IMG/VR virus record: IMGVR_UViG_3300046518_000260
Span: 1-64,000 of that record
DNA from: a virus
Lineage: Duplodnaviria; Caudoviricetes
Strand: one strand, 5' to 3'
Length of the DNA stretch: 64,000 bases
The translations under genes were made by a program, and so were the position numbers. The notes under the pieces were generated by a model. It saw only the letters and a program-made list of their open reading frames with translations. It made no database searches and was not told the DNA's origin. Position 1 is the stretch's first letter. Each line of letters starts with the position of its first letter. Below, piece after piece: positions 18,780 through 52,613 of this stretch.

Positions 18780-18807
18780 TTGCCGTCCGCGCCGAAATCC
18801 TTATAAT
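18780..18807 (+). promoter_or_regulatory. early promoter
   Basis: TTGCCG-N16-TATAAT, GAAATCCT before -10. Confidence 0.8.
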
Positions 18808-18837
18808 TAGGGCAGCAAACAAGCAAAGGGGTTTTCC

Positions 18838-18915: not shown

Positions 18916-18924
18916 GGGGCGCAC

Positions 18925-19104: not shown

Positions 19105-19195
19105 GCCCTTTTTCCAACACCGATCGTTAAACTTTTAATAAAATTTTAGATATCGGTGCTAGGGCTTGGGGCCGTAGCCCCTTGCCTTTTCTGCG

Positions 19196-33939: not shown

Positions 33940-33940
33940 T

Positions 33941-34681
33941 CTATTCTCCGATCGCAACGTTATGATATTTGTCGTCAATGTCGTTCAGCAGCACGGCGAC
34001 GAACTCTTCCAGCCCAGAGCCAGGCACCAATTCCACAGCACGAACTTTCTTGTGCCATTTGGCTGTGATCATTGCCCGTGCTTCAAGAAGAGCCTCCAAC
34101 TTGCCGTTGCGCTTGGCGTCTGTCTGTGTAGACTTGATGGCTGCCAACGCCACGCGGGCCTCAGGAGGCTCAAGCCCCAACTGGATGACATTAACAACGG
34201 AGATCGGCATGGTATCGCCGAATATTGCCGCTACATCTGCTAACGTCAGCGGTTGCTCAGCTGCCTTTGGTTCAAGCTCGTCACTTGATTGGGGCTTCGT
34301 CGACCATTTGTGATGCCACATGAACGCAAGGTAGATCGCAACGTCGCGCGGGTCGCCTTTGTCAATATGATGGAACATGCCGCGCCTGCACGAATGCTCC
34401 CAATTATCTTCCTTCCACCCTTCTGGATGGTATCCGTACTTCTCTTGCGCCGCGAACGCCTTCTGCTTCAATGCTTCTGCGAATTCATCGATAAGTGTAT
34501 CGATCGGCCAGTCTGGAACACCCTTGGGGAACTTGTCCAAGAACACCTTCCATTCAGGCCATTCTCGGTCGAGCACATCCCATTCGCCATGGGTCCATGC
34601 GCTGAGGAAACTTTGCACTTCAGAACCGGTTACAAGGGCGAACTGAAGAGCGGCATGTATATTTTCGTAAGGGTGGCTCAC
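33941..34681 (-). CDS. conserved phage protein
   Basis: EFAEALKQKAFAAQEKYGY...HHIDKGDPRDVAIYLAFMWHH helical motif. Confidence 0.65.
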   Translation of the reverse strand: MSHPYENIHAALQFALVTGSEVQSFLSAWTHGEWDVLDREWPEWKVFLDKFPKGVPDWPIDTLIDEFAEALKQKAFAAQEKYGYHPEGWKEDNWEHSCRRGMFHHIDKGDPRDVAIYLAFMWHHKWSTKPQSSDELEPKAAEQPLTLADVAAIFGDTMPISVVNVIQLGLEPPEARVALAAIKSTQTDAKRNGKLEALLEARAMITAKWHKKVRAVELVPGSGLEEFVAVLLNDIDDKYHNVAIGE

Positions 34682-37635: not shown

Positions 37636-37916
37636 TTTATGCCCAATACCCTTTGGAATTCGTCTTGTTTTTCGGAGGCTCCAAGATCATAAGCCGCCTC
37701 CAGGATGTGGAGAATGGACTGCAGATCGTAGTAGCCCTTCTCCGTGTTGGGGAACGTCGCCACGGTATACTCGCGGCGGCGCAATTCAAGCCTATCTGCT
37801 TTTGACTTCGGGGCGCGGTTCCATTCCTTCATGCACTGGACGGTTATCCCGGCGCATACTCTGAACACATCCCAATCCGGAGAGTATCTATCTGGCAGAA
37901 CGAATTCGTTCTTCAC
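37632..37916 (-). CDS. hypothetical protein
   Basis: 94 aa. Confidence 0.6.
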   Translation of the reverse strand: MKNEFVLPDRYSPDWDVFRVCAGITVQCMKEWNRAPKSKADRLELRRREYTVATFPNTEKGYYDLQSILHILEAAYDLGASEKQDEFQRVLGIK

Positions 37917-38476
37917 TAGACTATGAACCTCGACTTCAACTCATACTTGATGCTGGTCTTATCGAACTTGATTGGGATCGCCTGTTGCAAGTTGATCTTC
38001 TTCATCATGGCGATAAGGTCGCAGCAAATGATGACGTCGGAAAGCTCGTCGGCCAAGTCCCCAACGGTTGCTCTAGAACCGGCAAGGCCCAGGATTTCCC
38101 GCTGCATCTTCTTGACGACGTTGCCGACTTCGCCAGCTTCGCCGATCATTTCAGCAAAGCGGAACATCATGTCGATCTTGTGCGACGGGTCCCATTCCGC
38201 GTCGCGCAGAACATTGCTAGCGCGCAGGCGCTGCATAAAGTCAACCATATATGTATTCTCCTGTTTCGGTGGTATGATTTCAAGTGCTCGCGGATGGCAC
38301 GGTACGGCATGCTTTTCGCCATTGAACCGGACCTTGACGTAGTGGGTGTCGCTGCCGCGATGATGCTCCACCACACCAATGTCACCAAAGCGCACGCCCG
38401 GTTCGCTCCATGTCACGAACATGCCAACATTGAACGTAATTTCATAATAGTCTTCAATGTACTGGTAGTCGCTCAC
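37916..38476 (-). CDS. mazG: MazG-like NTP pyrophosphohydrolase with SH3-like N-terminal extension
   Basis: EMIGEAGEVGNVVKK...LADELSDVIICCD...KFDKT; internal AGGAG + ATG 38248. Confidence 0.8.
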   Translation of the reverse strand: MSDYQYIEDYYEITFNVGMFVTWSEPGVRFGDIGVVEHHRGSDTHYVKVRFNGEKHAVPCHPRALEIIPPKQENTYMVDFMQRLRASNVLRDAEWDPSHKIDMMFRFAEMIGEAGEVGNVVKKMQREILGLAGSRATVGDLADELSDVIICCDLIAMMKKINLQQAIPIKFDKTSIKYELKSRFIV

Positions 38477-39859: not shown

Positions 39860-40693
39860 ATGACAAAAGCGATTGCAAAAGCTGAGACCCCAAAGGTTCC
39901 GGCGACGGGGTTTGCTGCCGGGCGTTTCGACACTGGCAAAACGGGCCTCGAGAATGTTACGTCGAAGGATCTGTTGATCCCTCGCCTAACGATCCTCCAA
40001 GCACTGAGCCCACAGTGCGTTGAAGGTAAGCCTGAGTATCGTGAAGAGCTGCGGCCCGGCATGATCTACGACACGGGCCTGAGCGAGCACTTCAACAAGG
40101 AACTTGGCTTTGTTCCTGTCCACTTCGACAAGCAGTGGATTGAATGGGCTCCGCGCGAAACTGGCAAGGGCCTTATCAACATTTACGACAATGATGATAT
40201 TATGGCGCAGACCGAAGAAGACATCAACGGTCGTGATGCGCTGCCCAACGGCAACTACATCGTCGAGACAGCCCAAATCTACGGCCTCAATCTCAACGCC
40301 AAGTTGCGCCCGAGTTTCATCGCCCTCACAGGCATGCAGCTCAAGAAGGCCCGCCGCTGGCTGACGCTGGCAACCTCTGAAGAGATCGAACGGCCGGACG
40401 GAACTGTGTTCCAGGCACCGTTCTACTATCGGAGCTACAAGCTGACCACGACGCCCGAAAGCAATGCCAAGGGCAATTGGGTCGGTTGGGTCATCGACCG
40501 CGCCCGGTCCATTCCCGAGTTTGCCGAGAAGGACGAAGCCGCTGCTGAACGTTTGTTCACCAAGGCTATTTCGTTCAAGGAAAGCATCGATGCCGGTCTT
40601 GCCAAGGCCGACACTTCGACGCTCGACGATGGTGCGGGTGCTTCTGCAGGCGGCAAGCGCGGCGGCAGCAAAGACACAGGGCAGGAAATGTAA
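39860..40693 (+). CDS. probable ssDNA-binding/recombination protein
   Basis: DLLIPRLTILQALSP...PGMIY...WIEW...NAKGNWVGW; first gene of replication operon. Confidence 0.5.
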   Translation: MTKAIAKAETPKVPATGFAAGRFDTGKTGLENVTSKDLLIPRLTILQALSPQCVEGKPEYREELRPGMIYDTGLSEHFNKELGFVPVHFDKQWIEWAPRETGKGLINIYDNDDIMAQTEEDINGRDALPNGNYIVETAQIYGLNLNAKLRPSFIALTGMQLKKARRWLTLATSEEIERPDGTVFQAPFYYRSYKLTTTPESNAKGNWVGWVIDRARSIPEFAEKDEAAAERLFTKAISFKESIDAGLAKADTSTLDDGAGASAGGKRGGSKDTGQEM

Positions 40694-41331
40694 TGGAGCT
40701 ACTCGACAGAATAGCGCAACAAGTGGAGGCAGCTACGGCTGCCTCCGGCAACACCGAAAAGATCGTTAAGCTTGTCGAAGAAGCCAGCGATCTGCAGGAC
40801 GAGATCGAAGGCATGATGGAGATGCTGAAGACCCGCATTGGGCGCTTCAATCGCATCAAGCAATACGAGCTTGTTGAAGCAATGAAACTCGCCAACACTG
40901 GCGAGTACAAGACCCTCGACAGAAAGATCAAGGTAAAACTTGATAATTATGTCAGCGGTTCGCTCCCCAAGGAGGAACACGACCGTGAATTTGCACTTGG
41001 GGAACTGATCAGGGTCGGCGGACAACGGTTGATCAAGACCGGTATTTCGGTCGACTTCCCGAAGTCGATGCACAATGCCGCCAGTGTGGTGTTCGGCAAG
41101 CTTGCCGATCTGTGCAAGGAAATCGCGGTTGACGGCGAAGACGTCGAGCCTACCATGACCGAAGGCGTCCATGCCGCCAGCCTTCAGGCGTTTGCCAAGG
41201 AACTGATCAAGACTGGCAGCGACGTCAAGCTTGACGTGCTTGGGCTTTCTTCTGGACAGGTTGCCAAGTTCGAGTTTTACGACGAGAACGGCAAGAAGAA
41301 AAAGAAGTTGAGCCTTGAAGATGTTAAATAG
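40693..41331 (+). CDS. conserved phage replication-module protein
   Basis: 212 aa, TAATG overlap. Confidence 0.6.
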   Translation: MELLDRIAQQVEAATAASGNTEKIVKLVEEASDLQDEIEGMMEMLKTRIGRFNRIKQYELVEAMKLANTGEYKTLDRKIKVKLDNYVSGSLPKEEHDREFALGELIRVGGQRLIKTGISVDFPKSMHNAASVVFGKLADLCKEIAVDGEDVEPTMTEGVHAASLQAFAKELIKTGSDVKLDVLGLSSGQVAKFEFYDENGKKKKKLSLEDVK

Positions 41332-41959
41332 CGAACACGTAGTAAAGCGGGACATGCAGAACTTGCTCGAAGTTATCGCGCAAGCCAGCAATGTTCAGCG
41401 GTACTCGCGTGACTTTATGGTCCATCGGGAACACCTGCTTGACCATATCGGCTTCATGTGCGTGTTCTGCTACTTCGTGGCCGGGCGTCTCAGCGAACAG
41501 GGTTATACCGTTCGTTTGGGGCGCCTGCTCAGCCGGGCGGTTGCCCATGACCTTGAAGAAGTAATCACGGGCGACGTACCGCGCCCAACGAAACATTCGT
41601 CGCCGGAAGTTACGGCGGCGCTGAAAGTCCATGAAGTTGTTGCCGTCAACAGATTGATTGCTATCCTTCGTGTGGACTTTGCTCAGGATTGGGCAGAAGC
41701 CAAGGCGGACGACCTCGAAGGCGATATCATCAAGCTTGGTGACATGGCGGCGGTCGTCTATAAGACCATGAGTGAAGTTGCCATGTTGGGCAACAAGTCT
41801 TTCATCCGCGTCTCGGACGAGATCACGGTGGAGATGGACAAGCTTGTGTTGAAAATGAAAGACCATCCCCTTGAATGGATCGTGTTAGAGCTTAGCGATC
41901 TATTGGCCCGCTCGCGGTCCGGGGACATCAGATTTGGAGCTTTCTTCAAAGGACTATAA
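41321..41959 (+). CDS. HD-domain 5'-deoxynucleotidase (YfbR/DatZ-like)
   Basis: VQRYS...EHLLDH...AHDLEEVITGDVPRPTK...IIKLGD. Confidence 0.85.
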   Translation: MLNSEHVVKRDMQNLLEVIAQASNVQRYSRDFMVHREHLLDHIGFMCVFCYFVAGRLSEQGYTVRLGRLLSRAVAHDLEEVITGDVPRPTKHSSPEVTAALKVHEVVAVNRLIAILRVDFAQDWAEAKADDLEGDIIKLGDMAAVVYKTMSEVAMLGNKSFIRVSDEITVEMDKLVLKMKDHPLEWIVLELSDLLARSRSGDIRFGAFFKGL

Positions 41960-41963
41960 GGCA

Positions 41964-43103
41964 ATGATAACAGGAGCAGGCATCGACATTCATGTCGATC
42001 GTATGCCTAACGGCGTGAATGTCGCTAAAGCATGGGGCACGTCACGCCCCAACGACAAGACGAGCAAGCTTGTTGATGTGTTGAAAGTCGACACACCCGT
42101 CAACGAAATTGAGGATTTCATCCTCACCGTCAAATGCCCGATCATCTTCCGCGAAATGTTGTTCAGCCTGAGAGACCATGTCGCTTGGGCGCGCACCAGT
42201 CGCGTTGACGACCTTAACCGTTGGGAAGTGTACTATCAGTATGCTGACCATCCCGGCGTCAAGGAATGCTACAAATCCATGATGTCGGCGCAAGTGCGCA
42301 ACGAAGCCCAGGACAACTTCCGCGAATGGTTGCCGATGGTTTACCTGACTTCGTTCACCCTCAAGCTTTCGGCCCGGACCCTGATCAGGTTTACCCAAGG
42401 CATCAACGAACTGCGCAAGAGTATCAGCCTTGAGCGCAGCCCCAAGCTTTGGGATATGGTCAACGACTTCTACAAAGAACTGCGTTGGGCCATCAACCAA
42501 AGCATCTATCAGGACTTGCCGATCGAAACATACGGGGCGGAAAACATCTTCCCTATGTGCGACAATATTGATGTTGCCAACGTCTCAGTGATGCAGGAAT
42601 TCGTCTACTGCTACGTTACCGACGTTCCTGTCAGTCTGCGGGCGCAGTTGGTGCGTCATCGGCCGGTCATGATCCGTGATACTATGCGGAACTTCCTGAC
42701 TGAAGATGGCGTGACCATGCCTATCCGTTCGCCTGTTGATGTTGCCATGGTCATGTCACTTGAGACGGCGCAGAACATGGTCAAGAAGCGCAACTGCTGG
42801 ATCGCTCAGGAGGACTTGTGGTCCCCAATCGTCAAGCAGCTGAACAAGGCCCTCGGGCCGAGCGACGGTTTTATCCTGCCTTGCACCAACAAGACGGAAT
42901 GCCCGGTCGCGCAGGACAATCAGTTGCGCTATGACGGCAAGGACCCGGCACCGCCTTGCCCTATATGGTGCGGCATGGGTGCCAAGCCCGTGACGTTTAA
43001 TCAACGTACCGATGTGTTGCGGTATATTGAAAAGCGCACCAATAGCACCAAGTTCTGGCAGGGTCAGGTCCAGTCACAACTCGCAGAAGAAGAAGGAGCG
43101 TAG
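41964..43103 (+). CDS. tandem ThyX/Thy1-like protein, divergent
   Basis: Domain 1 SLR-x7-TSR and FREWLP...SARTL; domain 2 RAQLVRHR and KKRNCWIAQ. Confidence 0.6.
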   Translation: MITGAGIDIHVDRMPNGVNVAKAWGTSRPNDKTSKLVDVLKVDTPVNEIEDFILTVKCPIIFREMLFSLRDHVAWARTSRVDDLNRWEVYYQYADHPGVKECYKSMMSAQVRNEAQDNFREWLPMVYLTSFTLKLSARTLIRFTQGINELRKSISLERSPKLWDMVNDFYKELRWAINQSIYQDLPIETYGAENIFPMCDNIDVANVSVMQEFVYCYVTDVPVSLRAQLVRHRPVMIRDTMRNFLTEDGVTMPIRSPVDVAMVMSLETAQNMVKKRNCWIAQEDLWSPIVKQLNKALGPSDGFILPCTNKTECPVAQDNQLRYDGKDPAPPCPIWCGMGAKPVTFNQRTDVLRYIEKRTNSTKFWQGQVQSQLAEEEGA

Positions 43104-43107
43104 GCCC

Positions 43108-43629
43108 ATGAGCCGATTTAAGTATGACGTGTATCTGGCAGGCCCGTTCTTCAACGACAAGCAGAAGGCCACCATGCACGCAGCCAAGGAAATGCTGCAA
43201 AGCCATGGCCTGATCGTCTGCGACCCGCAGGACCTTAGCCCGGTGCTCGTCGACCTGCCGCCGGAAGAGCGGAAGAAGCATGTGAAGGATATCTTCACCA
43301 ACAACATCGATGCAATGAACAGGAGCTTTGCCCTGCTCGCCTGCATCGATGACCGTGATACCGGCACTAGCTTTGAGCTTGGGTACTGCTTCGCCTCGTT
43401 CAAGGAGAAAGGTCCGATACTGACCTTCAGTTCGCAAGGTTTTGGGGCGAACGTCATGTTGTCTGAGGCGACAAATGCGCATTTTGAAACGCTTGGCGAT
43501 CTTGATGTCGGCCTACGCATTATCGGTAATTATCTGGTATGGTCTAGCGGTGCTCGTTCATCATATTTTTACAGCCAACTCTTCGCTGGTTATAAGACTA
43601 TTGGCAGCAAGGCAGTTGCGGTAGAATGA
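43108..43629 (+). CDS. nucleoside 2-deoxyribosyltransferase / dNMP N-glycosidase family
   Basis: VYLAGPFFN...DPQ...IFTNNIDAM...DTGTSFELGY. Confidence 0.85.
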   Translation: MSRFKYDVYLAGPFFNDKQKATMHAAKEMLQSHGLIVCDPQDLSPVLVDLPPEERKKHVKDIFTNNIDAMNRSFALLACIDDRDTGTSFELGYCFASFKEKGPILTFSSQGFGANVMLSEATNAHFETLGDLDVGLRIIGNYLVWSSGARSSYFYSQLFAGYKTIGSKAVAVE

Positions 43630-44078
43630 CAGTTGTCCTGCTAGTCGACCTTGAGGGTGTTCTGTTCAACAACGCCCAAAGGCTCCATCTGTTCAAAGCT
43701 GCACAGTGGGCCGAGTACGAAACTTCATTCCCGGACGACACAGTTTATCCGGTAATGAGCCAGTTCCTTTCTTCCGTGTATTGGTCAACCTTCGAGCTTG
43801 TCATTGTTACCGGTCGGTATCAGAAATACTATGACCAGACAGTGGAGCAAATGCGCAAGGTGAACATCCACCCGGAACATCTGTTGATGCGGGATAACTT
43901 CGACATCCCCAAGACGAAGGAGCCGGAACTCAAGCTGCAACTGCTTGACGAGATCAAACGCCTTTACCCGGAACCGGGCACGATGTTCATTGCACTTGAA
44001 GATCGTGACGATGTGGTCGAGGCATATCGCAACGCTGGCATTGAATGCTGGCAGGTCAGAAATGGAAGTATCGGATGA
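43626..44078 (+). CDS. HAD phosphatase (T4 PNK phosphatase-like)
   Basis: VDLEGVL, VTGR, LLMR, K, LEDRDDVV motifs. Confidence 0.8.
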   Translation: MTVVLLVDLEGVLFNNAQRLHLFKAAQWAEYETSFPDDTVYPVMSQFLSSVYWSTFELVIVTGRYQKYYDQTVEQMRKVNIHPEHLLMRDNFDIPKTKEPELKLQLLDEIKRLYPEPGTMFIALEDRDDVVEAYRNAGIECWQVRNGSIG

Positions 44079-44653
44079 AAGAATTACCAGAAGTGAAGCA
44101 AGTTCGGCCATACGTTGCGGCCGAACTTGAAAAGAAGGCCAAGATTTACGAGGAACGCAACAAGCTTTATGGCGACAACTACAAGCGCCATGGACTTGTC
44201 ATGCAGGCATTGTTCCCTTATGGCCTTGCCGTCACCAACGTCGAGAACCATAACCGGCTCGGAGTGTTCACGCAGATGGTTGCCAAGCTGACCCGCTACG
44301 CTGAAAACTTCCAGCGCGGCGGTCATGACGACAGCCTTGACGACCTGACGGTATATACCATGATGCTCAAGGAACTGGACATGGAGGCTGCCAGCATGGC
44401 GGAATACCATGGCTACGAGGAAGCTGCCCAAGCTGCGACCAATGAGCCGGAGGTCCAGGCGCGTGAAGCCGATAGCTTTCTCGGCCGATACCCGGACCCA
44501 ACCGCCGCAGACGCATTCGTCTATGGACGGACAGTTGTACGACCCGGCGCTGGAGAAGATAGCGAACAGGTTGCGCCAGAACCTCCGGCTCTAGACCAGC
44601 TTGAGCATAACTCAGACGCGCCGCCTGCCGTCCTGGAAGTCCCGCAAAAATGA
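44075..44653 (+). CDS. all-alpha pyrophosphatase-like domain (Nmad1/DUF6378-like) with acidic tail
   Basis: ERNKLYGDNY...AKLTRY...DDSLDDLTVY. Confidence 0.55.
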   Translation: MKELPEVKQVRPYVAAELEKKAKIYEERNKLYGDNYKRHGLVMQALFPYGLAVTNVENHNRLGVFTQMVAKLTRYAENFQRGGHDDSLDDLTVYTMMLKELDMEAASMAEYHGYEEAAQAATNEPEVQAREADSFLGRYPDPTAADAFVYGRTVVRPGAGEDSEQVAPEPPALDQLEHNSDAPPAVLEVPQK

Positions 44654-45186
44654 GGGACTTGGTATTCGATACCGAGACGACCGATCTTATTGATAACATC
44701 GGTCGTCCCCTTTCCAAGCAGCCATATGTGATTGAATTTTTCGGCATCACTGTGGAGCGGGAAGCTCGCGAAGTCACCGAAGAAACTTTGTCTTTGTTGA
44801 TCAAGCCGCCGTTCGTTATTACCGAAACCACGACCCAGATCACCGGCATCACTGCGCCGATGCTCGTCAATGCCCCAACCTTCTCGTTTGTGGCAAAGCA
44901 AATCAAAGATTACGTCGAAAGCCATGATCGTATCGTTGCCCATAATGCCGGGTACGATAAAGACATGCTTGAGATTGAATTCAAACGGCTAGGTGTGGAG
45001 ATAAACCTGCCGGAAGTGATTTGCACCATTGAAGGTACGGAACACCTGAAAGGCTACCGCCTCAACCTTGGGGCGTTGCACACTGAATTGTTCGGCGCAG
45101 ACTTCGCTGACCACCATAGAGCCGAGCCGGATACGCGGGCAACTGCCCGCTGTTATGTTGAACTCTTGAACAGGGGAATTCTATGA
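44650..45186 (+). CDS. dnaQ: DnaQ-like DEDDh 3'-5' exonuclease
   Basis: FDTETT, AHNAGYD, HHRAEPD. Confidence 0.9.
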   Translation: MRDLVFDTETTDLIDNIGRPLSKQPYVIEFFGITVEREAREVTEETLSLLIKPPFVITETTTQITGITAPMLVNAPTFSFVAKQIKDYVESHDRIVAHNAGYDKDMLEIEFKRLGVEINLPEVICTIEGTEHLKGYRLNLGALHTELFGADFADHHRAEPDTRATARCYVELLNRGIL

Positions 45187-45590
45187 AGAAGCCACGCACC
45201 GGACCCAATCAGCATATGCAGTCGCTGCAAGCGATTGTCAAGATGTTTGAGGAAGGCAAGGCTAAACAGTTCGCAATCGTCTGTGATGCACATGTCATGG
45301 GCGAGCTAGTTGACCGTGGCGGCGCTGCCGTACAGGCGCTAGGCTACCCGGTTTTGTATAGCCGTCACATGGCCTCGATAAGCGGCGGCACCAACGATAA
45401 TAAGAAAGGCTTGGGGCTTGAGATCAATTACCTCGCCCTGAACCACGATACTATCGACCGGTTGCGCGGTCGGCCTCTGTACGTTTTCAATATTGCCGAA
45501 ATGGGTGTGCACACTTTGTCATTGGACAACCTGCGCCACCTCGACGACCTGATTGCCGAAATGAACTCCAGGATGGAACTACCCCAATGA
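45183..45590 (+). CDS. hypothetical protein
   Basis: 135 aa, ATGA overlaps on both sides. Confidence 0.65.
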   Translation: MKKPRTGPNQHMQSLQAIVKMFEEGKAKQFAIVCDAHVMGELVDRGGAAVQALGYPVLYSRHMASISGGTNDNKKGLGLEINYLALNHDTIDRLRGRPLYVFNIAEMGVHTLSLDNLRHLDDLIAEMNSRMELPQ

Positions 45591-48565
45591 AAGTCATGAC
45601 CGGATATTCCTACGGCCACTCTGCAGGCCACATCGAAGAAGTCATGGACCGCATTGTTGCATGCGGATATCCGGCTGCGCCTATCTCTGACTTTTGTTCA
45701 ACTTTTGGGTTCGTCCAGTGGCGGAAGCTCGCCAAGAAGAAGAACCTCAAACCTATATATGGGGTTACTATCAATGTCACCAATGGCCCGCAAGACAAGC
45801 GCCCGGCGACGTGTGAATTTACGTTCTACGCCAAAGACAACATCCTCGCAATCCACGACCTTATTGAGCTTGCCACAAATCAATTTCGCTATACGCCCCT
45901 TCTCACCTATGAGCAAGTTGCACGGGCGAAGGGTGTTATCAAAATCATTGGTCATCGAGCAAGACTTGAGCTCGTGGAGCCCGATGAAGATACATATGTC
46001 GGTGTCACACCTGCGGTCTATCCCGGCTATTTTAAGCAAGCCGAAGAGCTCGGGTTCCAGTTCATTGCGTCCAGCGAAAACCGCTATACTGGCAAAAATG
46101 ACCGCATCCTATACGAAACTCTTATGGGTCGCAATAAACAGACGCAGAGCTATCCACAATATATACTCGATCCGGAAGAATGGCGGGTGGCCGTTGCAAA
46201 ATGTCAAGCTTCGGACGCACGGCTTGATGAAGCACGAGAGAATTTTCTACGAGCGATGGAGAAGTGCAATGCTCTCCTGCCACAAGGTACACTCCTTACA
46301 CCTGTCAAGGATAAGACACTCCGACAACTGTGTGTGGCGGGTGCCGAACGCCTACGGTGCAACCTCGACGATCCGGTTTATTCGGCGCGCCTTGACCGTG
46401 AGCTGACCCTTATTGACGACAAGGGTTTTGAGGACTACTTCTACATCGTGTCTGAAATGATTGCATGGTCCAAGGAGCGCATGCTGGTAGGGCCGGGCCG
46501 TGGTTCCAGCTCAGGCAGTCTGGTATGCTACCTCCTTGGGATCACGATGATTGACCCAATACCATACGGATTGCTGTTCGAGCGTTTCATCGACATCAAC
46601 CGCATGGACTTGCCTGACATCGACATCGACTTTAGCGAACAACGCCGTTCCTTGGTGTTCGAACACATGGCAGATCTGTACGGCAAGGACCGTACCGCGC
46701 GCCTTGGCACCGTGTCGTTGTACAAGCCGAAATCGGTTATTGAAGCGGCGGCGCAGAACCTTGGCGTGCCGTTCTGGCTGACCAATCCCGTGCGCGACAG
46801 TATGATTGAAACATCATCAGGTGACGCGCGTGCACTAAAGGCCATCGAAGACACGTTCGAGAAGACGCCTGCCGGGCAAAAGCTGATGCAGGCGCATCCT
46901 GAAATGGCAATCGCCATGCGGATGGAAGGCCACCCTAACAACAAATCACAGCATGCGGCAGGCGTCATCGTTACCGCGCGTCCGGTCAAGGAATATGTGG
47001 CCGTTGACAGCATCACGGGCGGCACCTACTGCAACAAGAAGGATGCCGAAGAGCTCAACCTTCTTAAGATCGATGCTTTGGGGCTGACCCAATTGTCCGT
47101 CTTTGAGGACGCGCTTGACCTGATAGGCAAAGGCAGCGCTTGGCTTGATGCTATACCGACGGAGGACCAGGATGCATTTCGCGTACTTAACGAGCAGAAG
47201 TTCTCAGGAGTATTTCAGTTTGAAGGTGCAGCGCTGCAACGAGTTTCGAAAGAGGTCAATATTACGTGCCTCGACGATATCATCTCACTTACAGCGCTCG
47301 CCCGCCCGGGACCTTTGTCGTCGGGAAGCACGGCGCACTGGATCAAACGCAAGGCAGGCAAGGAAGAAGTCCGCATCCCTCATCCCGTATTCGAGCCGTA
47401 CCTCCTTGATACGTTTGGGGTCGTTGTTTATCAAGAACAAATCATGTCTATCGTGCGCGAAGTCGGGGGACTTTCTTGGGAGGACACCTCAAATCTACGT
47501 AAAGCAATGTCAAAATCTCTTGGACGTGAATTTTTTGACGGCTTTGGAAATCCATTTAAGGAGGAGTGCGTCAAGAAGGGAGTTCCGTTTGATATCGCCT
47601 TCGACGTCTGGGATAGTCTCTGCGCATTTGGGGCTTGGTGTTTCAACAAATCTCATGCGGTGGCGTATGGCCTTATCAGCTATCAATGCGCTTATCTCAA
47701 AGCACACTATCCGCTTGAATTTGCAGCTGCCACACTGACACATAAGGGCTCTGACGCCGATGGAATTGCCAAGCAGCTAAAGCAACTCCGAGAAATGCGC
47801 GATGAAGGTGTCAGCTATATTGCCGCACACGAAGAGCTCTCCACCGACAAGTGGCGCGTCGGCGTGGTTGACGGTGAGAAGTTGCTAATTGGACCCGTTC
47901 AAAACGTTAAGGGAATTGGCCCAAAGCTAGTTCAGGAGATCATGACGGCGCGCGCAATGAGCTTGCCTTTACCGGCGCGTGCAGCTAAGCTGTTAAGCTC
48001 ACCTAAGACGAAAGTTGACACCCTTGCCCCAATCGCTGACGCCTTTAGACGGGTTATGCCTGACCCGCGTGAGCGGAACATTCTCAACCCACCGACACCT
48101 CTCAATGAGATACAGGTCACGGGGCAAGAATACGACGTCTTGGTATTTGTCATTATGGCAAAGATCAACCCTAAAGACGAAAACGAAGACATCAACGTTG
48201 CAAAACGTGGTGGCAAGCGGCTCAGCGGGCCGCACCTTTCCTTGGGGCTGCATCTGGCTGATGATACTGACAATATCTATGCCAAGGTGGGACGTTACGA
48301 CTACGAGGATATAGCTAAACCTATCATTGATCGCGGGCGAGCAAGCAAGGCATTATACGCGATCAAGGGGACGGTGCCTAAAGACTTCAGAATGATTAAT
48401 ATCAAACTGGTTCGGTATATTGGCGATATCGATCCAAAGTTTGAAACGGCACAACAGGAGCAGACCGTTGAGAGCGGGACCGATACTGGAACGACTACTG
48501 GTAGTTACGGGAGCTATGTGCGGGGCGACATCCTTAGCTCTGGAAGTCAAGCGCCCAATCCCTAA
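45587..48565 (+). CDS. dnaE: DNA polymerase III alpha subunit (family C)
   Basis: GPGRGSSSGSLV, LLFERF, DLPDIDID, LKIDALG, FNKSHAVAY, C-terminal OB fold. Confidence 0.95.
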   Translation: MKVMTGYSYGHSAGHIEEVMDRIVACGYPAAPISDFCSTFGFVQWRKLAKKKNLKPIYGVTINVTNGPQDKRPATCEFTFYAKDNILAIHDLIELATNQFRYTPLLTYEQVARAKGVIKIIGHRARLELVEPDEDTYVGVTPAVYPGYFKQAEELGFQFIASSENRYTGKNDRILYETLMGRNKQTQSYPQYILDPEEWRVAVAKCQASDARLDEARENFLRAMEKCNALLPQGTLLTPVKDKTLRQLCVAGAERLRCNLDDPVYSARLDRELTLIDDKGFEDYFYIVSEMIAWSKERMLVGPGRGSSSGSLVCYLLGITMIDPIPYGLLFERFIDINRMDLPDIDIDFSEQRRSLVFEHMADLYGKDRTARLGTVSLYKPKSVIEAAAQNLGVPFWLTNPVRDSMIETSSGDARALKAIEDTFEKTPAGQKLMQAHPEMAIAMRMEGHPNNKSQHAAGVIVTARPVKEYVAVDSITGGTYCNKKDAEELNLLKIDALGLTQLSVFEDALDLIGKGSAWLDAIPTEDQDAFRVLNEQKFSGVFQFEGAALQRVSKEVNITCLDDIISLTALARPGPLSSGSTAHWIKRKAGKEEVRIPHPVFEPYLLDTFGVVVYQEQIMSIVREVGGLSWEDTSNLRKAMSKSLGREFFDGFGNPFKEECVKKGVPFDIAFDVWDSLCAFGAWCFNKSHAVAYGLISYQCAYLKAHYPLEFAAATLTHKGSDADGIAKQLKQLREMRDEGVSYIAAHEELSTDKWRVGVVDGEKLLIGPVQNVKGIGPKLVQEIMTARAMSLPLPARAAKLLSSPKTKVDTLAPIADAFRRVMPDPRERNILNPPTPLNEIQVTGQEYDVLVFVIMAKINPKDENEDINVAKRGGKRLSGPHLSLGLHLADDTDNIYAKVGRYDYEDIAKPIIDRGRASKALYAIKGTVPKDFRMINIKLVRYIGDIDPKFETAQQEQTVESGTDTGTTTGSYGSYVRGDILSSGSQAPNP

Positions 48566-48647
48566 AGACGTGCTGATTAAATGGAGCCGGGAGCTACGGG
48601 AAGCTGCCGCGCTGGTTGACCAATTGTTGGGCGGTAACAAATCATGA
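48468..48647 (+). CDS. 59-aa protein overlapping the dnaE 3' end
   Basis: AGGAG SD 7 nt before TTG 48468; ATGA overlap with primase. Confidence 0.5.
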   Translation: MRAGPILERLLVVTGAMCGATSLALEVKRPIPKDVLIKWSRELREAAALVDQLLGGNKS

Positions 48648-50857
48648 TATCCGATCTTTACGACATTCCATCCGTAGCACAATATCTACGGCGGATTAAG
48701 GCCGAAACGCGCGGTCTATATACCGCCGTTATCCGTGAAAAGCGCGGCAAATATTTCAAAGACCTGAACCGTATCGAGTTTGACCCGGCCGATGGCAAGG
48801 TGTCGACTGATGACAGCATCGCCCCAAGCGAGCTGGAGCAGCAGAATATCACGGCTGAATGGACTACGGTCACGTTCCCAGAATATGTGACGCCTGCCCG
48901 CGCGATCAACCTGCCACAAGCGCTGATGGAAGCCGACGCCAACGCCGTCTTTGAATTCAAGGACCGTTGGGGCAAAATCCTGATGCTGCAACAGCGTCTC
49001 GACCCAAAAGATGACATGGAAGAGAAGCGTTATATACCGTGGACTTATTGGTCAGATGACCAGTGGCGCAAGATTGAACCACCGACGCTCCTGCCGCTGT
49101 ATGGCTTGGACAAGATCGGTGACTATACGACAGTGTTCATCCATGAAGGTGCCAAGGCAGCACGGGCCATGCACCGTCTGTTAGAGGACAACAAGGCATA
49201 TCACCCGTGGCTGGAAGAGCTCCGGGCCGGGGCGCATGTAGGCTGGTCAGGTGGCGCACTCAACCCGCGCCGTACAGACTGGTTCCCGCTGGAAGACATG
49301 GGCATAAAGCGTGCCTTCATTGTTTCAGACAATGACAAGCCCGGTCGCGAAGCCGTAGCGCCTATTTCGCAGAAGCTGCGCATGCAGACCTTCCATGTGC
49401 AGTTCACGGACGAATGGCCGTCGGCCTTTGACCTTGCTGACGAGTTCCCCAAGAAGATGTTTGCCAAGCTGGAAGGTAAGGAAATCTATCGCGGGCCAAT
49501 GTTCGAAAGCTGCGTCCATCCTGCCACATGGATGACAGACGAAGTCAAGCAGCCCAAGGGGCGACCGGCATATTTTCTGCGCCCGCATGTTACGGAAGAA
49601 TGGTTCTATGTCGACCGTGCGGACATGTTTGTCAATTTGGAGCGCCCGCACATCGCTGGTAACGAAAAGATCATCAATACCATGCTGGCAAGTTTCAGTG
49701 ATACCTCCGATACCTGCCGGTTGATCTCCAAGAAATATTCAGGCCGAATGTCCCGGCTCTGCTACCGCCCTGACGTTGTCGGCCGCAAAGTTACCGAAGG
49801 CAATACGTCTGCGATCAACATGCACATCCCTCCGGCTATCCGTTCCATGCCCGGCAACCCGGAACCTTTTCTGGAGTTCATGCGTTATCTGGTAGTGAAG
49901 CCGGAAGAATGCAAGGAGGCCCTGCGCTGGTGTGCTACCCTGATAGCCAAGCCGGAAGTGCGGATGTTGTACGGTCTGCTCCTGATCTCTGAAATGCAGG
50001 GCGTCGGCAAATCTACTTTGTCAAGCCGCATCCTTGCGCCGTTGGTCGGCATGAGCAATGTCGGCTTCCCTACTGAAAACGACATTGTGGAGAGCCAGTT
50101 CAATTCGTGGATGGCAAACAAGCGTCTCGTCGTTGTCAGTGAAATCTATTCAGGTCACTCCTGGAAAGCCTACAACAAACTGAAGACCTACATCACCGAC
50201 ACGGAGATCATGGTCAACGAGAAACAACAGAAGCGCTACCAGACAGAAAATTGGGCGCACTTCATTGCCAGCTCGAATTCGGTTAAGGCCATGAAGATTG
50301 AAGACGAGGACCGCCGTTGGTTGTGTCCAGAATGTACTGAAATAAAATGGCCTGCCAAGAAGTTCAAAGAGTTTAACGAATGGATTAATGCCGGTGGCCT
50401 TGCCATCATCAAGCATTGGGCCGAAAACTTTGGGGACTATGTGGCGGTCGGCGAAGCAGCCCCAATGACGACCAAGAAAAAAGAAATGATTGCTGCTTCC
50501 AGAACTCCGGAAGAAGTGCGGGCTGCCGAGCTTGCCGAGCGTATCATATTCGAAGAAGTGCACGTCGCCCTCTCGACCCGTGACATTGAAGTCTGGTCAA
50601 GGTACGATAGCAAGGGCAAATCTTTCAGCACTGCACATGATCTGCGCAAGGCCATGCTGAACGAAGGTATGGTCGCCCACAGCAAGCGCATCCGCATCGG
50701 CGGCGTGCTGCAATACGTTCTGCTCAGCCCGGCACTGTTTGCCGCGCATCAGGCCGTGTTTGAAGAGCCTGAGTTGGAAGAGAAGACCATTGCTGAGCTT
50801 ATCCGCAAGCACATCAAGTATCCGCAAGATATCGCACCCATGTCTTCCGCTGCATAA
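48644..50857 (+). CDS. TOPRIM primase fused to SF3/D5-like helicase
   Basis: IHEGAKAA, SDNDKPG (TOPRIM); QGVGKSTL, VVSEI, SSN (SF3). Confidence 0.85.
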   Translation: MISDLYDIPSVAQYLRRIKAETRGLYTAVIREKRGKYFKDLNRIEFDPADGKVSTDDSIAPSELEQQNITAEWTTVTFPEYVTPARAINLPQALMEADANAVFEFKDRWGKILMLQQRLDPKDDMEEKRYIPWTYWSDDQWRKIEPPTLLPLYGLDKIGDYTTVFIHEGAKAARAMHRLLEDNKAYHPWLEELRAGAHVGWSGGALNPRRTDWFPLEDMGIKRAFIVSDNDKPGREAVAPISQKLRMQTFHVQFTDEWPSAFDLADEFPKKMFAKLEGKEIYRGPMFESCVHPATWMTDEVKQPKGRPAYFLRPHVTEEWFYVDRADMFVNLERPHIAGNEKIINTMLASFSDTSDTCRLISKKYSGRMSRLCYRPDVVGRKVTEGNTSAINMHIPPAIRSMPGNPEPFLEFMRYLVVKPEECKEALRWCATLIAKPEVRMLYGLLLISEMQGVGKSTLSSRILAPLVGMSNVGFPTENDIVESQFNSWMANKRLVVVSEIYSGHSWKAYNKLKTYITDTEIMVNEKQQKRYQTENWAHFIASSNSVKAMKIEDEDRRWLCPECTEIKWPAKKFKEFNEWINAGGLAIIKHWAENFGDYVAVGEAAPMTTKKKEMIAASRTPEEVRAAELAERIIFEEVHVALSTRDIEVWSRYDSKGKSFSTAHDLRKAMLNEGMVAHSKRIRIGGVLQYVLLSPALFAAHQAVFEEPELEEKTIAELIRKHIKYPQDIAPMSSAA

Positions 50858-50915: not shown

Positions 50916-52613
50916 ATGATTTTAACGGCAAACAATGAAACCTGCGTTGCTCGTGTTGATAAAGGGCAGGCATTCGGGAAGCGGCTCATGGGCTTTCTCG
51001 AAAAGGTTGCCGGGCGCAAGAATTTCACCAAGGACGGAAGCGGCTATTGGTTCGAAACTTCGCAGCGTAATATCGAATATTGGCTGGAAGCATTCCCTGA
51101 GTGCACGCTCGTCGACGCTCGGCAGAAGTCCAAGGTCAACATTATTGACCAATCGCTGTTCGGCAATGTGCGCAAGCCGCGCCCGCCGTTCCAGATTGTC
51201 AAGCAGCCGTATGCTCACCAAACGCGCGGTTTCGAAAAGACCAAGGACTTGACGCTGAGCGCCCTGTTCATGGGCACAGGGACCGGCAAGACCAAAGTCT
51301 CGATCGATAAAGCGGTTTATCTTTGGTCCCAACATTTGATCGACGCCCTGCTCATTCTGACCAAGAAGGGCGTGCATGAACAGTGGGTCGACGAACAGCT
51401 ACCGGAGCACATCCATGAAAGCATACCGTATGTCGCGCACGCTTGGGAAGGCTTCACGACTGTTCGCGAAAAACAGGCGTTTGATAAGGTGCTTAATGCG
51501 TCTGAGAAACTCCGGGTTTTCTCTATTAATCTCGATGCGATTTCATCCAAGAACGGCTTCAACGCTGTTATGCGGTTTATTAAACGAGCGGGTGGGCGTG
51601 TCTACGCTATCGTTGACGAAAGCCAGGACGCTAAGGACCCTGAGAGCAATCGAGGCCAGACACTCCAGGAGATAAGGGATGAATGTCTCTATCGGTCGGT
51701 TCTGTCGGGCACCCCGATCGGGAAGAACCTCGAAGACGTTTGGGGTCAGTTCCATTTTCTTGACACCGACATTATCGGCCACGAATACAAGACGCCGTTC
51801 CGTGCTGAATATTGCAAGATGGGCGGCTTCCAAGGCAAGGCGGTTGTCGGCCATAAGGACTTGGAAAAGTTCTATGGCCGCATCGATAGCGTGACGTTCC
51901 GGGCTACCAAAGAAGACGAGCTTGACCTGCCGGAAAAGCTGTACGAACGCAAGGCGTTCAAGCTGACGACCAAGCAGCAAGCCGTATATGACAAGCTAAA
52001 GAAAGAGTTTATCGTCCGGCTTGAGAACGATGCTACCGTGACCGTTGACCATGCGGCCACCATGGTCATGCGCCTGCAACAGATCGCATGCGGCTTCGTG
52101 GTGGATGAGGACGGCACGACCCAGAAGTTGGACAACCCAAGGATTGACTTGCTGGAAAGCCTTGATGACGACATCGGCCGGAAGGAAAAGAAGATCGTTT
52201 GGTGCCGGTTCAAGGAAGACTACGTCAATCTGAAGACGCTGTTTGGTTCCCGGGCCGTGGACTACGTAGGCCATACCTCTGACGAAGATCGCAAGCTCAA
52301 CAAAGGATTGTTCCTTGACAAAAACTCTGGAAAAGACATCCTTATTTCTAACCCATCTTCGGGCGGAACGGGGCTCAATCTTCAGGGCGAGTGTGCCTAT
52401 GCGATTTATTATTCCAATTCCTACAACGCTATTCACCGCTGGCAGTCGGAAGACCGTATCCACAGGATCGGCACCTACAAGACCTGCCACTTCATCGACC
52501 TGATTGCCAGCCGTACAGTTGACAATCGGATACAACAGAACCTAAGACAGAAAAAGGACTTCTCGCAGCTCGTACTGGACGATATTCGCAAGATGATTTT
52601 TGAGGCAGCATGA
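50916..52613 (+). CDS. SNF2-like SF2 helicase
   Basis: GTGTGKT, VDESQ, LSGTP, GTGLNLQ, QSEDRIHRIG. Confidence 0.9.
   Translation: MILTANNETCVARVDKGQAFGKRLMGFLEKVAGRKNFTKDGSGYWFETSQRNIEYWLEAFPECTLVDARQKSKVNIIDQSLFGNVRKPRPPFQIVKQPYAHQTRGFEKTKDLTLSALFMGTGTGKTKVSIDKAVYLWSQHLIDALLILTKKGVHEQWVDEQLPEHIHESIPYVAHAWEGFTTVREKQAFDKVLNASEKLRVFSINLDAISSKNGFNAVMRFIKRAGGRVYAIVDESQDAKDPESNRGQTLQEIRDECLYRSVLSGTPIGKNLEDVWGQFHFLDTDIIGHEYKTPFRAEYCKMGGFQGKAVVGHKDLEKFYGRIDSVTFRATKEDELDLPEKLYERKAFKLTTKQQAVYDKLKKEFIVRLENDATVTVDHAATMVMRLQQIACGFVVDEDGTTQKLDNPRIDLLESLDDDIGRKEKKIVWCRFKEDYVNLKTLFGSRAVDYVGHTSDEDRKLNKGLFLDKNSGKDILISNPSSGGTGLNLQGECAYAIYYSNSYNAIHRWQSEDRIHRIGTYKTCHFIDLIASRTVDNRIQQNLRQKKDFSQLVLDDIRKMIFEAA

What the first reader, a model, noticed from the sequence alone, without database searches (positions are those of the whole stretch)
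41321..48565. Candidate non-canonical nucleotide / DNA-modification pathway coupled to a private DnaE
Seen: tightly coupled run of HD deoxynucleotidase, divergent tandem ThyX-like, NDT/N-glycosidase, HAD phosphatase, all-alpha pyrophosphatase-like, DnaQ, unknown, DnaE. Known: base-substituting phages pair a synthetic enzyme with hydrolases that remove the canonical nucleotide (DatZ/MazZ in Z-DNA, dCTPase in hmC phages), and NDT-fold enzymes such as MilB and DNPH1 act on modified pyrimidine nucleotides. No PurZ, ThyA-type hydroxymethylase, Dpd/Que or glycosyltransferase is visible in this window. Inference: a pathway making an unrecognised pyrimidine modification, or aggressive dNTP pool remodelling.
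Basis: partly seen in the sequence, partly recalled or inferred. Interest (0 to 1): 0.8.

Follow-up and report, generated by a model that had tools for sequence, protein, structure and literature searches.

The report
Phage thymidine-replacement enzyme trio beside DnaE
A complete 75-kb uncultured phage carries, welded to its own DNA polymerase genes, the same trio of enzymes (an altered ThyX, a deoxyribosyltransferase and an HD phosphatase) found in the few cultured phages shown to replace thymine with a bulky modified base. It therefore probably makes an unusual DNA pyrimidine, but nobody has looked at its DNA.

Summary
The gene run is real and translationally coupled; every junction from 39860 to 48565 is -11 to +4 nt. 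Six of the eight labels hold: YfbR-type HD hydrolase, NDT, HAD phosphatase, DnaQ, an unknown protein and DnaE. Two need correcting. The "pyrophosphatase-like" protein is an all-alpha DUF6378-like domain with no pyrophosphatase evidence. The ThyX-like protein is one full ThyX domain plus an unmatched 185-aa extension carrying RHR, not a shown tandem.

The core is a conserved trio. Of 71 related viral loci with the ThyX-like gene, 63 have the NDT and 58 the HD within two genes. Among 50,697 phage records the ThyX-like gene occurs in nine phages. These include SP-15, YerA41 and Carin-5, all experimentally thymidine-hypermodified, and all nine also carry this rare NDT. The HD subfamily is likewise concentrated in known or suspected T-modifying phages.

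The genome has no PurZ, ThyA, canonical ThyX, dUTPase, dCMP deaminase or SDR, and I found no glycosyltransferase among the ORFs scanned. Best reading (0.6): a nucleotide-pool pathway that makes a C5-substituted dUMP in place of dTMP; the product is unknown. Ordinary thymidylate supply remains possible (about 0.27). The link to DnaE is clade synteny, not a requirement. This scan has found the same trio before on other DNA.

The parts
39860..40693 (+). Pam3 gp34-like protein, first gene of the coupled operon
   Evidence: PF23977, 164 bits. Overlaps the next gene by 1 nt. Found upstream of the HD gene in 27 related loci.
40693..41331 (+). Pam3 gp33-like protein (DUF7307)
   Evidence: PF23984, 41.8 bits. 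Overlaps the HD start by 11 nt.
41321..41959 (+). YfbR-type HD phosphohydrolase (5'-deoxynucleotidase-like; DatZ/OxsA relatives)
   Evidence: PF12917, 73 bits; phrog_7076. Best solved relative is YfbR 2paq, then OxsA and DatZ. Family-invariant H42, H76, D77, E80, D85 and D141 align to YfbR H33, H68, D69, E72, D77 and D137. Below the NCBIfam equivalog cut-off (47 against 122).
41964..43103 (+). ThyX-derived protein, 379 aa: a full ThyX domain (3-192) plus an extension (200-379) with an RHR motif and four Cys
   Evidence: Pfam Thy1 only 18 bits, TIGR02170 17.5 bits. AF2 model pLDDT 92. ThyX/PolB at Z 11.5-13, next best Z 4.5. 581 protein clusters at E<=1e-3. Homologues in YerA41, SP-15 and Carin-5.
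43108..43629 (+). Nucleoside 2-deoxyribosyltransferase-fold enzyme
   Evidence: PF05014, 62 bits. Family profile against PDB: NDT 6evs 1e-19, DNPH1 only E 0.4-0.9. Invariant Y9, D81, D84, E90 and N115. 56% identical to the gene after ThyX-like in L004. tblastn hits in 72 of 78 loci held.
43626..44078 (+). HAD phosphatase of the PNKP-phosphatase type
   Evidence: PF25109, 48.6 bits; phrog_415. Present in only 9 of 74 loci compared.
44075..44653 (+). All-alpha DUF6378-like domain (about 100 aa) with a disordered tail; function unknown
   Evidence: Helices 13-122. Weak DUF6378 hits in 17 of 31 relatives. The same domain is fused behind HAD_PNKP in phages EC150, Kyle and MTx (phrog_4889). It precedes DnaQ in 51 loci. 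No specific fold match.
44650..45186 (+). DnaQ-type 3'-5' proofreading exonuclease
   Evidence: PF00929, 65 bits; phrog_192.
45183..45590 (+). 135-aa unknown alpha/beta protein, found only in the closest relatives
   Evidence: No family hit. Homologues only in L004 and L005. Atlas models resemble the ATPase-fold half of terminases, TM 0.6-0.7, but I see no Walker A motif.
45587..48565 (+). DnaE-type replicative polymerase (PHP, NTPase and finger domains)
   Evidence: PF07733 211 bits, PF17657 131 bits, PF02811 41 bits; phrog_405 704 bits. Cultured relatives are at most 37% identical.
48644..50857 (+). DUF5906 primase/helicase-like protein
   Evidence: PF19263, 82 bits.
50916..52613 (+). SNF2-family helicase
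   Evidence: PF00176, 58 bits.
37916..38476 (-). Candidate MazG-like NTP pyrophosphatase (C-terminal 100 aa), in the divergent early operon
   Evidence: phrog_229 at E 7.6e-4. All six weak PDB hits are DCTPP1/RS21-C6 or iMazG, E 0.1-0.8, with GEAGE and ELSD motifs aligned. Weak; only L003 and L004 share parts of it.

Best explanation
The block is the replication and nucleotide operon of a complete 75-kb phage. Its distinctive core is a conserved enzyme trio that most likely replaces dTMP with a C5-substituted deoxyuridylate in the nucleotide pool.

Shown:
- The three genes are adjacent and co-inherited across a large viral family.
- They share a rare distribution with phages whose thymidine is hypermodified.

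Inferred mechanism:
1. The ThyX-derived protein binds dUMP and flavin as ThyX does. It keeps equivalents of ThyX R147 and R165 in the ThyX domain and of Q75, R78, H79 and R80 in the extension. It installs a carbon substituent at uracil C5, but stops short of, or departs from, plain methylation.
2. The YfbR-type HD hydrolase, helped here by the HAD phosphatase and perhaps a MazG-like enzyme, dephosphorylates canonical deoxynucleotides, most plausibly thymidine nucleotides. This keeps T out of the DNA, much as DatZ excludes dATP in Z-genome phages.
3. The NDT moves or releases deoxyribose from the resulting nucleosides.
4. The phage's own DnaQ-DnaE then polymerises the altered pool.

The chemical identity of the product is not determined. 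This genome lacks the SDR and glycosyltransferases of the large phages with pentyl-linked bases, so its product is probably simpler.
For: 1. Synteny. Of 71 loci with the ThyX-like gene (69 IMG/VR loci plus YerA41 and SP-15), 63 have the NDT and 58 the HD within two genes, at ThyX-like identities down to 26%.

2. Rare shared distribution in 50,697 phage records.
- ThyX-like occurs in 10 records, which are 9 phages: YerA41, vB_Yru_GN1, phiXF1, SP-15, Carin-5, Vibrio 150E35-1, Va2, 1.031.O and Streptococcus GXN1.
- This NDT subfamily occurs in 9 records, 8 of them the same phages. SP-15's NDT is found by Pfam.
- All 5 genomes tested in full have both the NDT and a YfbR-like HD above the Pfam cut-off.
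- Vibrio 150E35-1 has the same order, HD, ThyX-like, NDT.

3. Link to modified DNA. SP-15 carries 5-(4',5'-dihydroxypentyl)uracil. YerA41 and Carin-5 carry thymidine adducts of about 1 kDa on a (di)hydroxypentyl linker (PMC5977210, PMC9023294, PMC12686479).

4. The HD subfamily hits 27 records. 21 of them are ThyX-like phages or members of the suspected T-modifying group of PMC12686479 Table 1 and their close relatives: the RHph_TM30 group, LIS04, EP_H11 and IME392.

5. It is not a spare thymidylate synthase. SP-15 also has a canonical ThyX (82 bits) and Carin-5 a ThyA (231 bits).

6. Our protein fails both the Pfam and the TIGR thyX cut-offs and lacks an intact RHR-x7-S-x-R signature in one domain.

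7. In a FastTree tree our clade is sister to YerA41 gp081.

8. All HD and NDT catalytic residues are conserved.
Against: - No data exist on this phage's DNA.
- Only three of the nine cultured carriers have been analysed chemically.
- Those three also have SDR reductases and glycosyltransferases. This genome has no SDR and no glycosyltransferase was found among the ORFs scanned, so it cannot make the same product.
- I found no dNMP kinase for a modified nucleotide, and no dUTPase, dCTP deaminase or dCMP deaminase to feed dUMP.
- The genome has no other thymidylate synthase. The ThyX-like protein could therefore simply be its thymidylate synthase, as may also hold for YerA41 and 150E35-1.
- The genome assembled from a metagenome, so any modification does not block sequencing.
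- Flavin binding and oligomeric state are untested.
Confidence: 0.6

Rival explanations
1. Ordinary thymidylate supply and pool balancing. The ThyX-like protein is a very divergent but genuine flavin-dependent thymidylate synthase. The HD nucleotidase and NDT recycle deoxyribose from host-DNA breakdown products so the pool matches the phage's base composition. The virion DNA is canonical.
For: - Residues 3-192 are a complete ThyX fold, with equivalents of R147 and R165 kept.
- The genome has no other thymidylate synthase.
- The NDT is most like true base-swapping transferases.
- YfbR is a housekeeping 5'-deoxynucleotidase.
- The genome assembled normally from metagenomic reads.
- Most carriers have never been tested for modification.
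Against: - SP-15 and Carin-5 keep a canonical ThyX or ThyA beside this protein.
- The family fails the thyX model cut-offs, and the Ser/Arg part of the signature is missing.
- Among cultured phages the trio's distribution is almost confined to proven or suspected T-modifiers. A generic salvage module would not be expected to show that.
Confidence: 0.27
2. A specific form of the main reading, and the guess made in the literature: the ThyX-like protein is a flavin-dependent dUMP hydroxymethylase. The DNA then carries 5-hydroxymethyl-dU, as in SPO1. The HD enzyme acts as the dTMPase or dTTPase.
For: - Kropinski 2018 proposed SP-15 gp130 as an hmdUMP synthase.
- Sieskind 2025 lists YerA41 QSM00782.1, which is the homologue of our protein, as the thymidylate synthase homolog among genes for 5hmdUMP synthesis.
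- ThyX chemistry passes through an exocyclic methylene that water could trap (PMC8989533).
- The genome has none of the later tailoring enzymes I tested for.
Against: - No ThyX-type hydroxymethylase has been shown; every known one is ThyA-type (PMC8989533).
- It leaves the invariably linked NDT without a role.
- Per the titles cited in PMC5977210 (papers not held), SP-15's pentyl chain takes up label from ribose and is made at the nucleotide level. That does not point to a one-carbon hmU route.
Confidence: 0.2
3. Purine replacement as in Z-genome phages, with the HD protein acting as a DatZ-like dATPase.
For: The HD protein's best PHROG is the 'dATP triphosphohydrolase' family. DatZ 6zpa is a weak PDB hit at E 1e-3.
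Against: - There is no adenylosuccinate-synthetase/PurZ homologue anywhere in the complete genome, while the control rang in 14 of 14 genomes.
- YfbR scores far better than DatZ.
- The partner enzymes are pyrimidine-directed.
Confidence: 0.02

Closest known systems
ThyX-derived proteins of thymidine-hypermodified phages: YerA41 gp081 (QSM00782.1), SP-15 gp130, Carin-5 gene 049
   Same: - Same family and length. tblastn gives 32% identity over 92% of the query to YerA41, and 22-23% to SP-15 and Carin-5.
- Shared invariant W24, S27, R28, R63, R70, R80, Q116, D117, R138, R276, D318 and R322.
- The same NDT and YfbR-like HD partners occur in each genome.
   Different: - Those are 145-222-kb phages with an SP15-like PolA, SDR reductases and glycosyltransferases, and their genes are dispersed.
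- Here the trio is contiguous in a 75-kb genome beside DnaQ-DnaE, with no SDR.
- The Cys4 set of our clade is missing in YerA41 and 150E35-1 and only partly kept in SP-15.
- None of these proteins has been assayed.
Flavin-dependent thymidylate synthase ThyX/FDTS (T. maritima TM0449, M. tuberculosis ThyX) and the UMP/dUMP methylase PolB
   Same: Residues 3-192 superpose on them at Z 11.5-13, rmsd 2.7-3.8, 166-181 residues aligned. R120, R138, Q228 and R231-H232-R233 align to R147, R165, Q75 and R78-H79-R80.
   Different: - 10-17% identity, and below the Pfam and TIGR cut-offs.
- The signature is split: the ThyX domain has R-D-H, and the extension has RHR but Met where the Ser should be.
- There is an extra 185-aa extension with no fold match.
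hmU replacement pathway of Bacillus phages SPO1, SP8 and phi-e (my own knowledge; Warren 1980 review cited in PMC9023294)
   Same: The logic matches: a thymidylate-synthase relative makes a C5-modified dUMP while phage hydrolases destroy thymidine nucleotides.
   Different: That pathway uses a ThyA-type hydroxymethylase, has no NDT, and includes a dCMP deaminase and dUTPase. None of those is present here.
Z-genome module PurZ/DatZ/MazZ
   Same: An HD-family hydrolase of the same superfamily as DatZ, encoded next to a base-synthesis enzyme and a private polymerase.
   Different: No PurZ. The chemistry is pyrimidine-directed, not purine-directed.
Nucleoside 2-deoxyribosyltransferases (6evs, 1s2d, 1f8x) versus DNPH1/Rcl
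   Same: Pfam NDT above cut-off. The catalytic Tyr, Asp, Asp, Glu and Asn are conserved, and the C-terminus is conserved.
   Different: A viral subfamily found in only 9 of 50,697 phage records. Substrate is unknown.

Membership tests
ThyX / FDTS (PF02511, TIGR02170) | ThyX alpha/beta fold | tested here: met
   Residues 3-192: Z 11.5-13 to ThyX and PolB, next unrelated hit Z 4.5. Foldseek probability 1.00.
ThyX / FDTS (PF02511, TIGR02170) | Score above the curated family cut-offs | tested here: not met
   Pfam 18.0 against 24.8; TIGR02170 17.5 against 87.9. Some relatives do carry PF02511.
ThyX / FDTS (PF02511, TIGR02170) | Signature RHR-x7-S-x-R within one domain | tested here: not met
   The ThyX domain has R70-D71-H72...S79-R80. 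The extension has R231-H232-R233 followed by M241 where Ser is expected.
ThyX / FDTS (PF02511, TIGR02170) | Makes dTMP from dUMP with FAD, NADPH and CH2-THF; complements thyA | not testable with these tools
   Needs enzyme assays and genetics.
ThyX-derived family of T-hypermodified phages (SP-15 gp130, YerA41 gp081, Carin-5 049) | Full-length homology of about 350-410 aa with shared invariant residues | tested here: met
   tblastn E 3e-39 to YerA41 over 92% of the query; 83% coverage to SP-15 and Carin-5. 15 universally invariant residues. Sister to YerA41 in a tree.
ThyX-derived family of T-hypermodified phages (SP-15 gp130, YerA41 gp081, Carin-5 049) | Co-occurrence with the NDT and the YfbR-like HD | tested here: met
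   Adjacent here. 5 of 5 cultured genomes tested. 63 and 58 of 71 loci.
SP-15-type dihydroxypentyl-uracil system | SDR reductase accompanying the ThyX-like gene | tested here: not met
   No PF00106 match in the 75-kb genome. Present in YerA41, SP-15, Carin-5 and 19 related loci.
SP-15-type dihydroxypentyl-uracil system | Glycosyl- or phosphoglycosyl-transferases for the side chain | tested here: inconclusive
   None among about 70 ORFs scanned with Pfam, PHROGs or NCBIfam. Many small ORFs were not scanned.
SP-15-type dihydroxypentyl-uracil system | Modified base present in virion DNA | not testable with these tools
YfbR-like HD 5'-deoxynucleotidase (PF12917) | Family score and the catalytic residues H, HD, E, D, D | tested here: met
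   73 bits against 25.9. H42, H76, D77, E80, D85 and D141 are invariant in 46 of 46 relatives and align to the YfbR residues.
YfbR-like HD 5'-deoxynucleotidase (PF12917) | Orthology to E. coli YfbR (NCBIfam equivalog NF003009) | tested here: not met
   47 bits against a cut-off of 122.
Nucleoside 2-deoxyribosyltransferase (PF05014) | Family score and the catalytic Glu nucleophile with the Tyr, Asp and Asn set | tested here: met
   62 bits against 28.8. Y9, D81, D84, E90 and N115 invariant. Profile E 1e-19 to 6evs.
DNPH1/Rcl dNMP N-glycosidase | Closer to DNPH1 than to the transferases | tested here: inconclusive
   Profile E 0.4-0.9 to DNPH1, against 1e-19 to 1e-5 for NDTs. Substrate cannot be read from sequence.
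Z-genome system (PurZ/DatZ/MazZ) | PurZ (adenylosuccinate synthetase family) | tested here: not met
   No PF00709 match in the complete genome; the control rang in 14 of 14 genomes.
MazG-like all-alpha NTP pyrophosphatase (claimed for 44075-44653) | Family or fold match with the acidic metal-binding motifs | tested here: inconclusive
   No Pfam or NCBIfam hit. iMazG only at Foldseek E 1.5. The family-invariant residues R28, Y32, K71, R74, D86, S87 and D90 are not a MazG EExxE/ExxD set.

The most novel reading that the evidence does not exclude
The trio is one linear pathway that turns a deoxynucleotide's own sugar into the side chain of the new base.
1. The HD enzyme strips the phosphate from a dNMP.
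2. The NDT releases 2-deoxyribose, or holds it as a deoxyribosyl-enzyme intermediate.
3. The ThyX-derived flavoenzyme uses that aldehyde in place of the methylene of CH2-THF to reductively alkylate C5 of dUMP, giving a polyhydroxypentyl-dUMP.

This would explain three things: the strict three-gene linkage, the five-carbon linker of SP-15, YerA41 and Carin-5, and the old report that ribose label enters the SP-15 side chain. It would also mean that hundreds of uncultured phage lineages, including this DnaE clade, carry pentyl-type thymidine replacements.
Probability: 0.12. Interest if true: 0.85.

Novelty: new variant of a known kind. Interest (0 to 1): 0.62.

Why it matters
How phages build the pentyl-linked thymidine replacements of SP-15, YerA41 and Carin-5 has been unknown since the 1970s. 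Published proposals name only a 'thymidylate synthase homolog'.

This locus shows that homologue in its most compact setting: three contiguous, translationally coupled genes plus a phosphatase, without the glycosylation machinery of the large phages. The trio also defines a large viral family, with 391 protein clusters at E<=1e-10.

That gives a small, clonable gene set for reconstituting the first committed steps. It also gives a genomic marker for predicting modified DNA in uncultured phages. That matters for restriction and CRISPR evasion, and for sequencing biases in viromes. If the product turns out to be plain dTMP, the result is still a new architecture of flavin-dependent thymidylate synthase.

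Tried and rejected
- My first tblastn of the NDT against related loci found nothing. That was my error: the start was off by one base (43109 instead of 43108). Corrected.
- Cys4 as a catalytic Fe-S site: rejected. The four Cys are absent in YerA41 and 150E35-1 and only partly kept in SP-15, so a structural metal site is more likely.
- Fusion proteins as evidence of coupling. P0130 carries a DUF559 endonuclease in front of the ThyX-like part and P0087 an unidentified N-terminus. Neither is informative.
- The 192-aa all-alpha protein. Foldseek against PDB, VIA wide search and a PDB profile search gave only generic helical or chance matches.
- The second half of the ThyX-like protein. It has no fold match in the whole-model search.
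- The Walker & Mandel 1978 papers are not held. I used only their titles as cited in PMC5977210.
- A literature search for DNA analyses of phiXF1, Va2, GXN1 and 150E35-1 found nothing relevant.
- DNA-level search of the locus against phages matched only short DnaE stretches.

Full report
CONTEXT. The window is bases 1-64000 of a complete 75,275-bp virus record with direct terminal repeats. The arms encode portal, terminase, capsid and baseplate proteins. The middle holds small early genes on the minus strand. A plus-strand replication operon starts at 39860.

OBSERVATION. ORF listing and family scans confirm the run:
- YfbR-like HD hydrolase, 41321-41959
- ThyX-like protein, 41964-43103
- NDT, 43108-43629
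- HAD PNKP-type phosphatase, 43626-44078
- all-alpha protein, 44075-44653
- DnaQ, 44650-45186
- 135-aa unknown, 45183-45590
- DnaE, 45587-48565

Two Pam3 gp34/gp33-like genes precede the run, and a DUF5906 primase/helicase-like gene and an SNF2 helicase follow it. All junctions from 39860 to the DnaE start are -11 to +4 nt, so this is one translationally coupled unit. The promoter and terminator scan gave nothing decisive inside the run.

CORRECTIONS TO THE OBSERVATION.

(a) The 'pyrophosphatase-like' protein has a confident helical core, but I found no evidence that it is a pyrophosphatase. Its family touches DUF6378 only weakly. Fold searches return generic hairpins. In other phages the same domain is fused behind a HAD_PNKP phosphatase (phrog_4889). 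Genes 43626-44078 and 44075-44653 therefore look like a split form of that fusion. In most relatives the domain stands alone directly upstream of DnaQ-DnaE.

(b) 'Tandem ThyX' is only half shown. The AF2 model (pLDDT 92) has a complete ThyX domain at 3-192, with Z 11.5-13 to ThyX and PolB and the next hit at Z 4.5. Residues 200-379 match nothing in the whole-model search. A profile alignment places R120 and R138 on ThyX R147 and R165. It places Q228 and R231-H232-R233 on Q75 and R78-H79-R80, but that second stretch is not significant by itself.

(c) A better MazG-like candidate lies at 37916-38476 on the minus strand.

WHAT THE CORE IS. The ThyX-like protein has about 35 close homologues of the same length. 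A profile built from them finds 581 protein clusters in 1.84 billion representatives, 391 of them at E<=1e-10. I fetched 69 viral loci and clustered their ORFs. Of 71 loci with the ThyX-like gene, counting YerA41 and SP-15:
- 63 have an NDT (PF05014) within two genes;
- 58 have the YfbR-like HD within two genes;
- about 50 also have the DUF6378-like gene, DnaQ and DnaE nearby;
- 19 have an SDR reductase;
- 9 have the HAD.

Most misses are at contig ends. The trio is the conserved unit. The HAD, the 135-aa protein and the MazG-like ORF are specific to the closest relatives.

LINK TO MODIFIED DNA. tblastn of the ThyX-like protein against 50,697 phage records finds only ten records. They are nine phages: YerA41, vB_Yru_GN1, phiXF1, SP-15, Carin-5, Vibrio 150E35-1, Va2, 1.031.O and Streptococcus GXN1.
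- SP-15 carries 5-(4',5'-dihydroxypentyl)uracil bearing glucose and phosphoglucuronolactone (PMC5977210).
- YerA41 and Carin-5 carry thymidine adducts of about 1 kDa on a hydroxypentyl or dihydroxypentyl linker with a phosphate (PMC9023294; PMC12686479; PMC13697223).

The NDT subfamily is equally rare. It hits nine records, eight of which are the same phages. SP-15's NDT (gp127) lies three genes from gp130. All five genomes tested in full have both the NDT and the YfbR-like HD above the Pfam cut-offs. Vibrio 150E35-1 shows the same HD, ThyX-like, NDT order.

The HD subfamily hits 27 records, and 21 are tied to T modification. Nine are ThyX-like carriers. Twelve belong to the group named in Table 1 of PMC12686479 as having SP15-like polymerases and suspected T modification, or are their close relatives: the RHph_TM30 group, LIS04, EP_H11 and IME392. 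In a FastTree tree our clade (window, L004, L003) is sister to YerA41 gp081.

NOT A SPARE THYMIDYLATE SYNTHASE. SP-15 also has a canonical ThyX (82 bits) and Carin-5 a ThyA (231 bits). YerA41 and 150E35-1 have neither. Our protein is below the Pfam and TIGR thyX cut-offs. Across 53 non-redundant family members, 15 residues are universal and nine are arginines or near-invariant basic positions, which fits phosphate-bearing ligands. The four Cys of our clade are not universal, so they are not catalytic.

THE PARTNERS.
- HD: the metal and catalytic residues of YfbR are invariant in 46 of 46 relatives. It is not a YfbR orthologue.
- NDT: it keeps the catalytic Tyr, Asp, Asp, Glu and Asn set and a conserved C-terminus. 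Its profile matches true transferases at 1e-19 to 1e-5, but DNPH1 only at E 0.4-0.9.

WHAT THIS GENOME LACKS. It has no PurZ, ThyA, canonical ThyX, dUTPase/dCTP deaminase, dCMP deaminase or SDR. No glycosyltransferase was found among the scanned ORFs. SDRs occur in all three chemically verified phages, but not in phiXF1, 150E35-1 or here. If a modified base is made here, it is unlikely to be the full SP-15-type adduct.

MECHANISM. The trio's linkage and distribution are shown. The rest is inferred:
- The ThyX-derived enzyme modifies C5 of dUMP. ThyX chemistry passes through a flavin N5 iminium and an exocyclic methylene (PMC8989533). Either step could be diverted to a product other than a methyl group.
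- The HD, with the HAD and perhaps the MazG-like enzyme, removes canonical thymidine nucleotides. This is analogous to DatZ in Z-genome phages and to the dTMPase and dTTPase of hmU and uracil phages (the latter from my own knowledge).
- The NDT handles the resulting deoxynucleosides.

I put this general reading at 0.6. Its published special case, an hmdUMP synthase, I put at about 0.2. Ordinary dTMP synthesis plus salvage gets 0.27. Purine replacement gets 0.02.

A more speculative linear pathway, with deoxyribose as the alkyl donor, would explain the obligatory NDT and the five-carbon linker. It has no direct support, and I put it at 0.12.

DnaE COUPLING. Cultured DnaE relatives are at most 37% identical and mostly lack the trio. 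The verified modifiers use a PolA. The adjacency to DnaQ-DnaE is therefore a property of this uncultured clade, not of the pathway.

EARLIER SCAN NOTES. After I reached this reading I found that the scan had flagged the same trio on several other genomes, with the same closest relatives named. Other first-stage notes cover this same stretch. These agree with my reading but are not independent evidence.

VERDICT. This is a real, strongly conserved module. It is a new compact variant of the still uncharacterised ThyX-based branch of phage thymidine modification. Its biochemistry and product are unproven.

Noticed in passing
window 37916-38476 (-): 186-aa ORF whose C-terminal 100 aa look like a MazG/DCTPP1-type all-alpha NTP pyrophosphatase, with GEAGE and ELSD motifs. 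All six weak PDB hits are of that family. MazG-like genes also sit beside the trio in Carin-5 and Vibrio 150E35-1.
   Followed up: partly
window 33196-33978 (-): 260-aa ORF with a weak, sub-threshold NDT hit (PF05014, 16.8 bits). It may be a second, degenerate NDT-fold protein.
   Followed up: no
window 43626-44653 (+): The HAD phosphatase and the following all-alpha domain are separate genes overlapping by 4 nt here. In phages EC150, Kyle and MTx they form one fused protein (BFVD hits, 34-43% identity).
   Followed up: partly
L001 10389-10925 (YerA41_086): This gene is annotated 'mannosyltransferase' in GenBank, but it is an NDT-fold protein (PF05014, 52.6 bits) of the same subfamily as the window's NDT.
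   Followed up: yes
L001 6178-6942 (YerA41_080) and protein P0130: A DUF559 (Vsr-like) endonuclease sits immediately upstream of, or is fused to, the ThyX-like gene in two unrelated contexts. It may be a homing endonuclease targeting this gene.
   Followed up: no
L003 about 16066-19400: In this close relative DnaE is called as two ORFs of 358 and 747 aa. This could be a frameshift, an intein or intron, or an assembly error.
   Followed up: no
L039 9703-10185 and 21 other loci: A 160-aa protein with a faint T4 endonuclease V (Pyr_excise) hit lies between the HD gene and the DUF6378-like gene in 22 marine-type relatives. It is absent from the window.
   Followed up: no
window 45183-45590 (+): The 135-aa protein between DnaQ and DnaE has Atlas models resembling the ATPase-fold half of large terminases (TM 0.6-0.7), but I see no Walker A motif. 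It occurs only in the closest relatives.
   Followed up: partly
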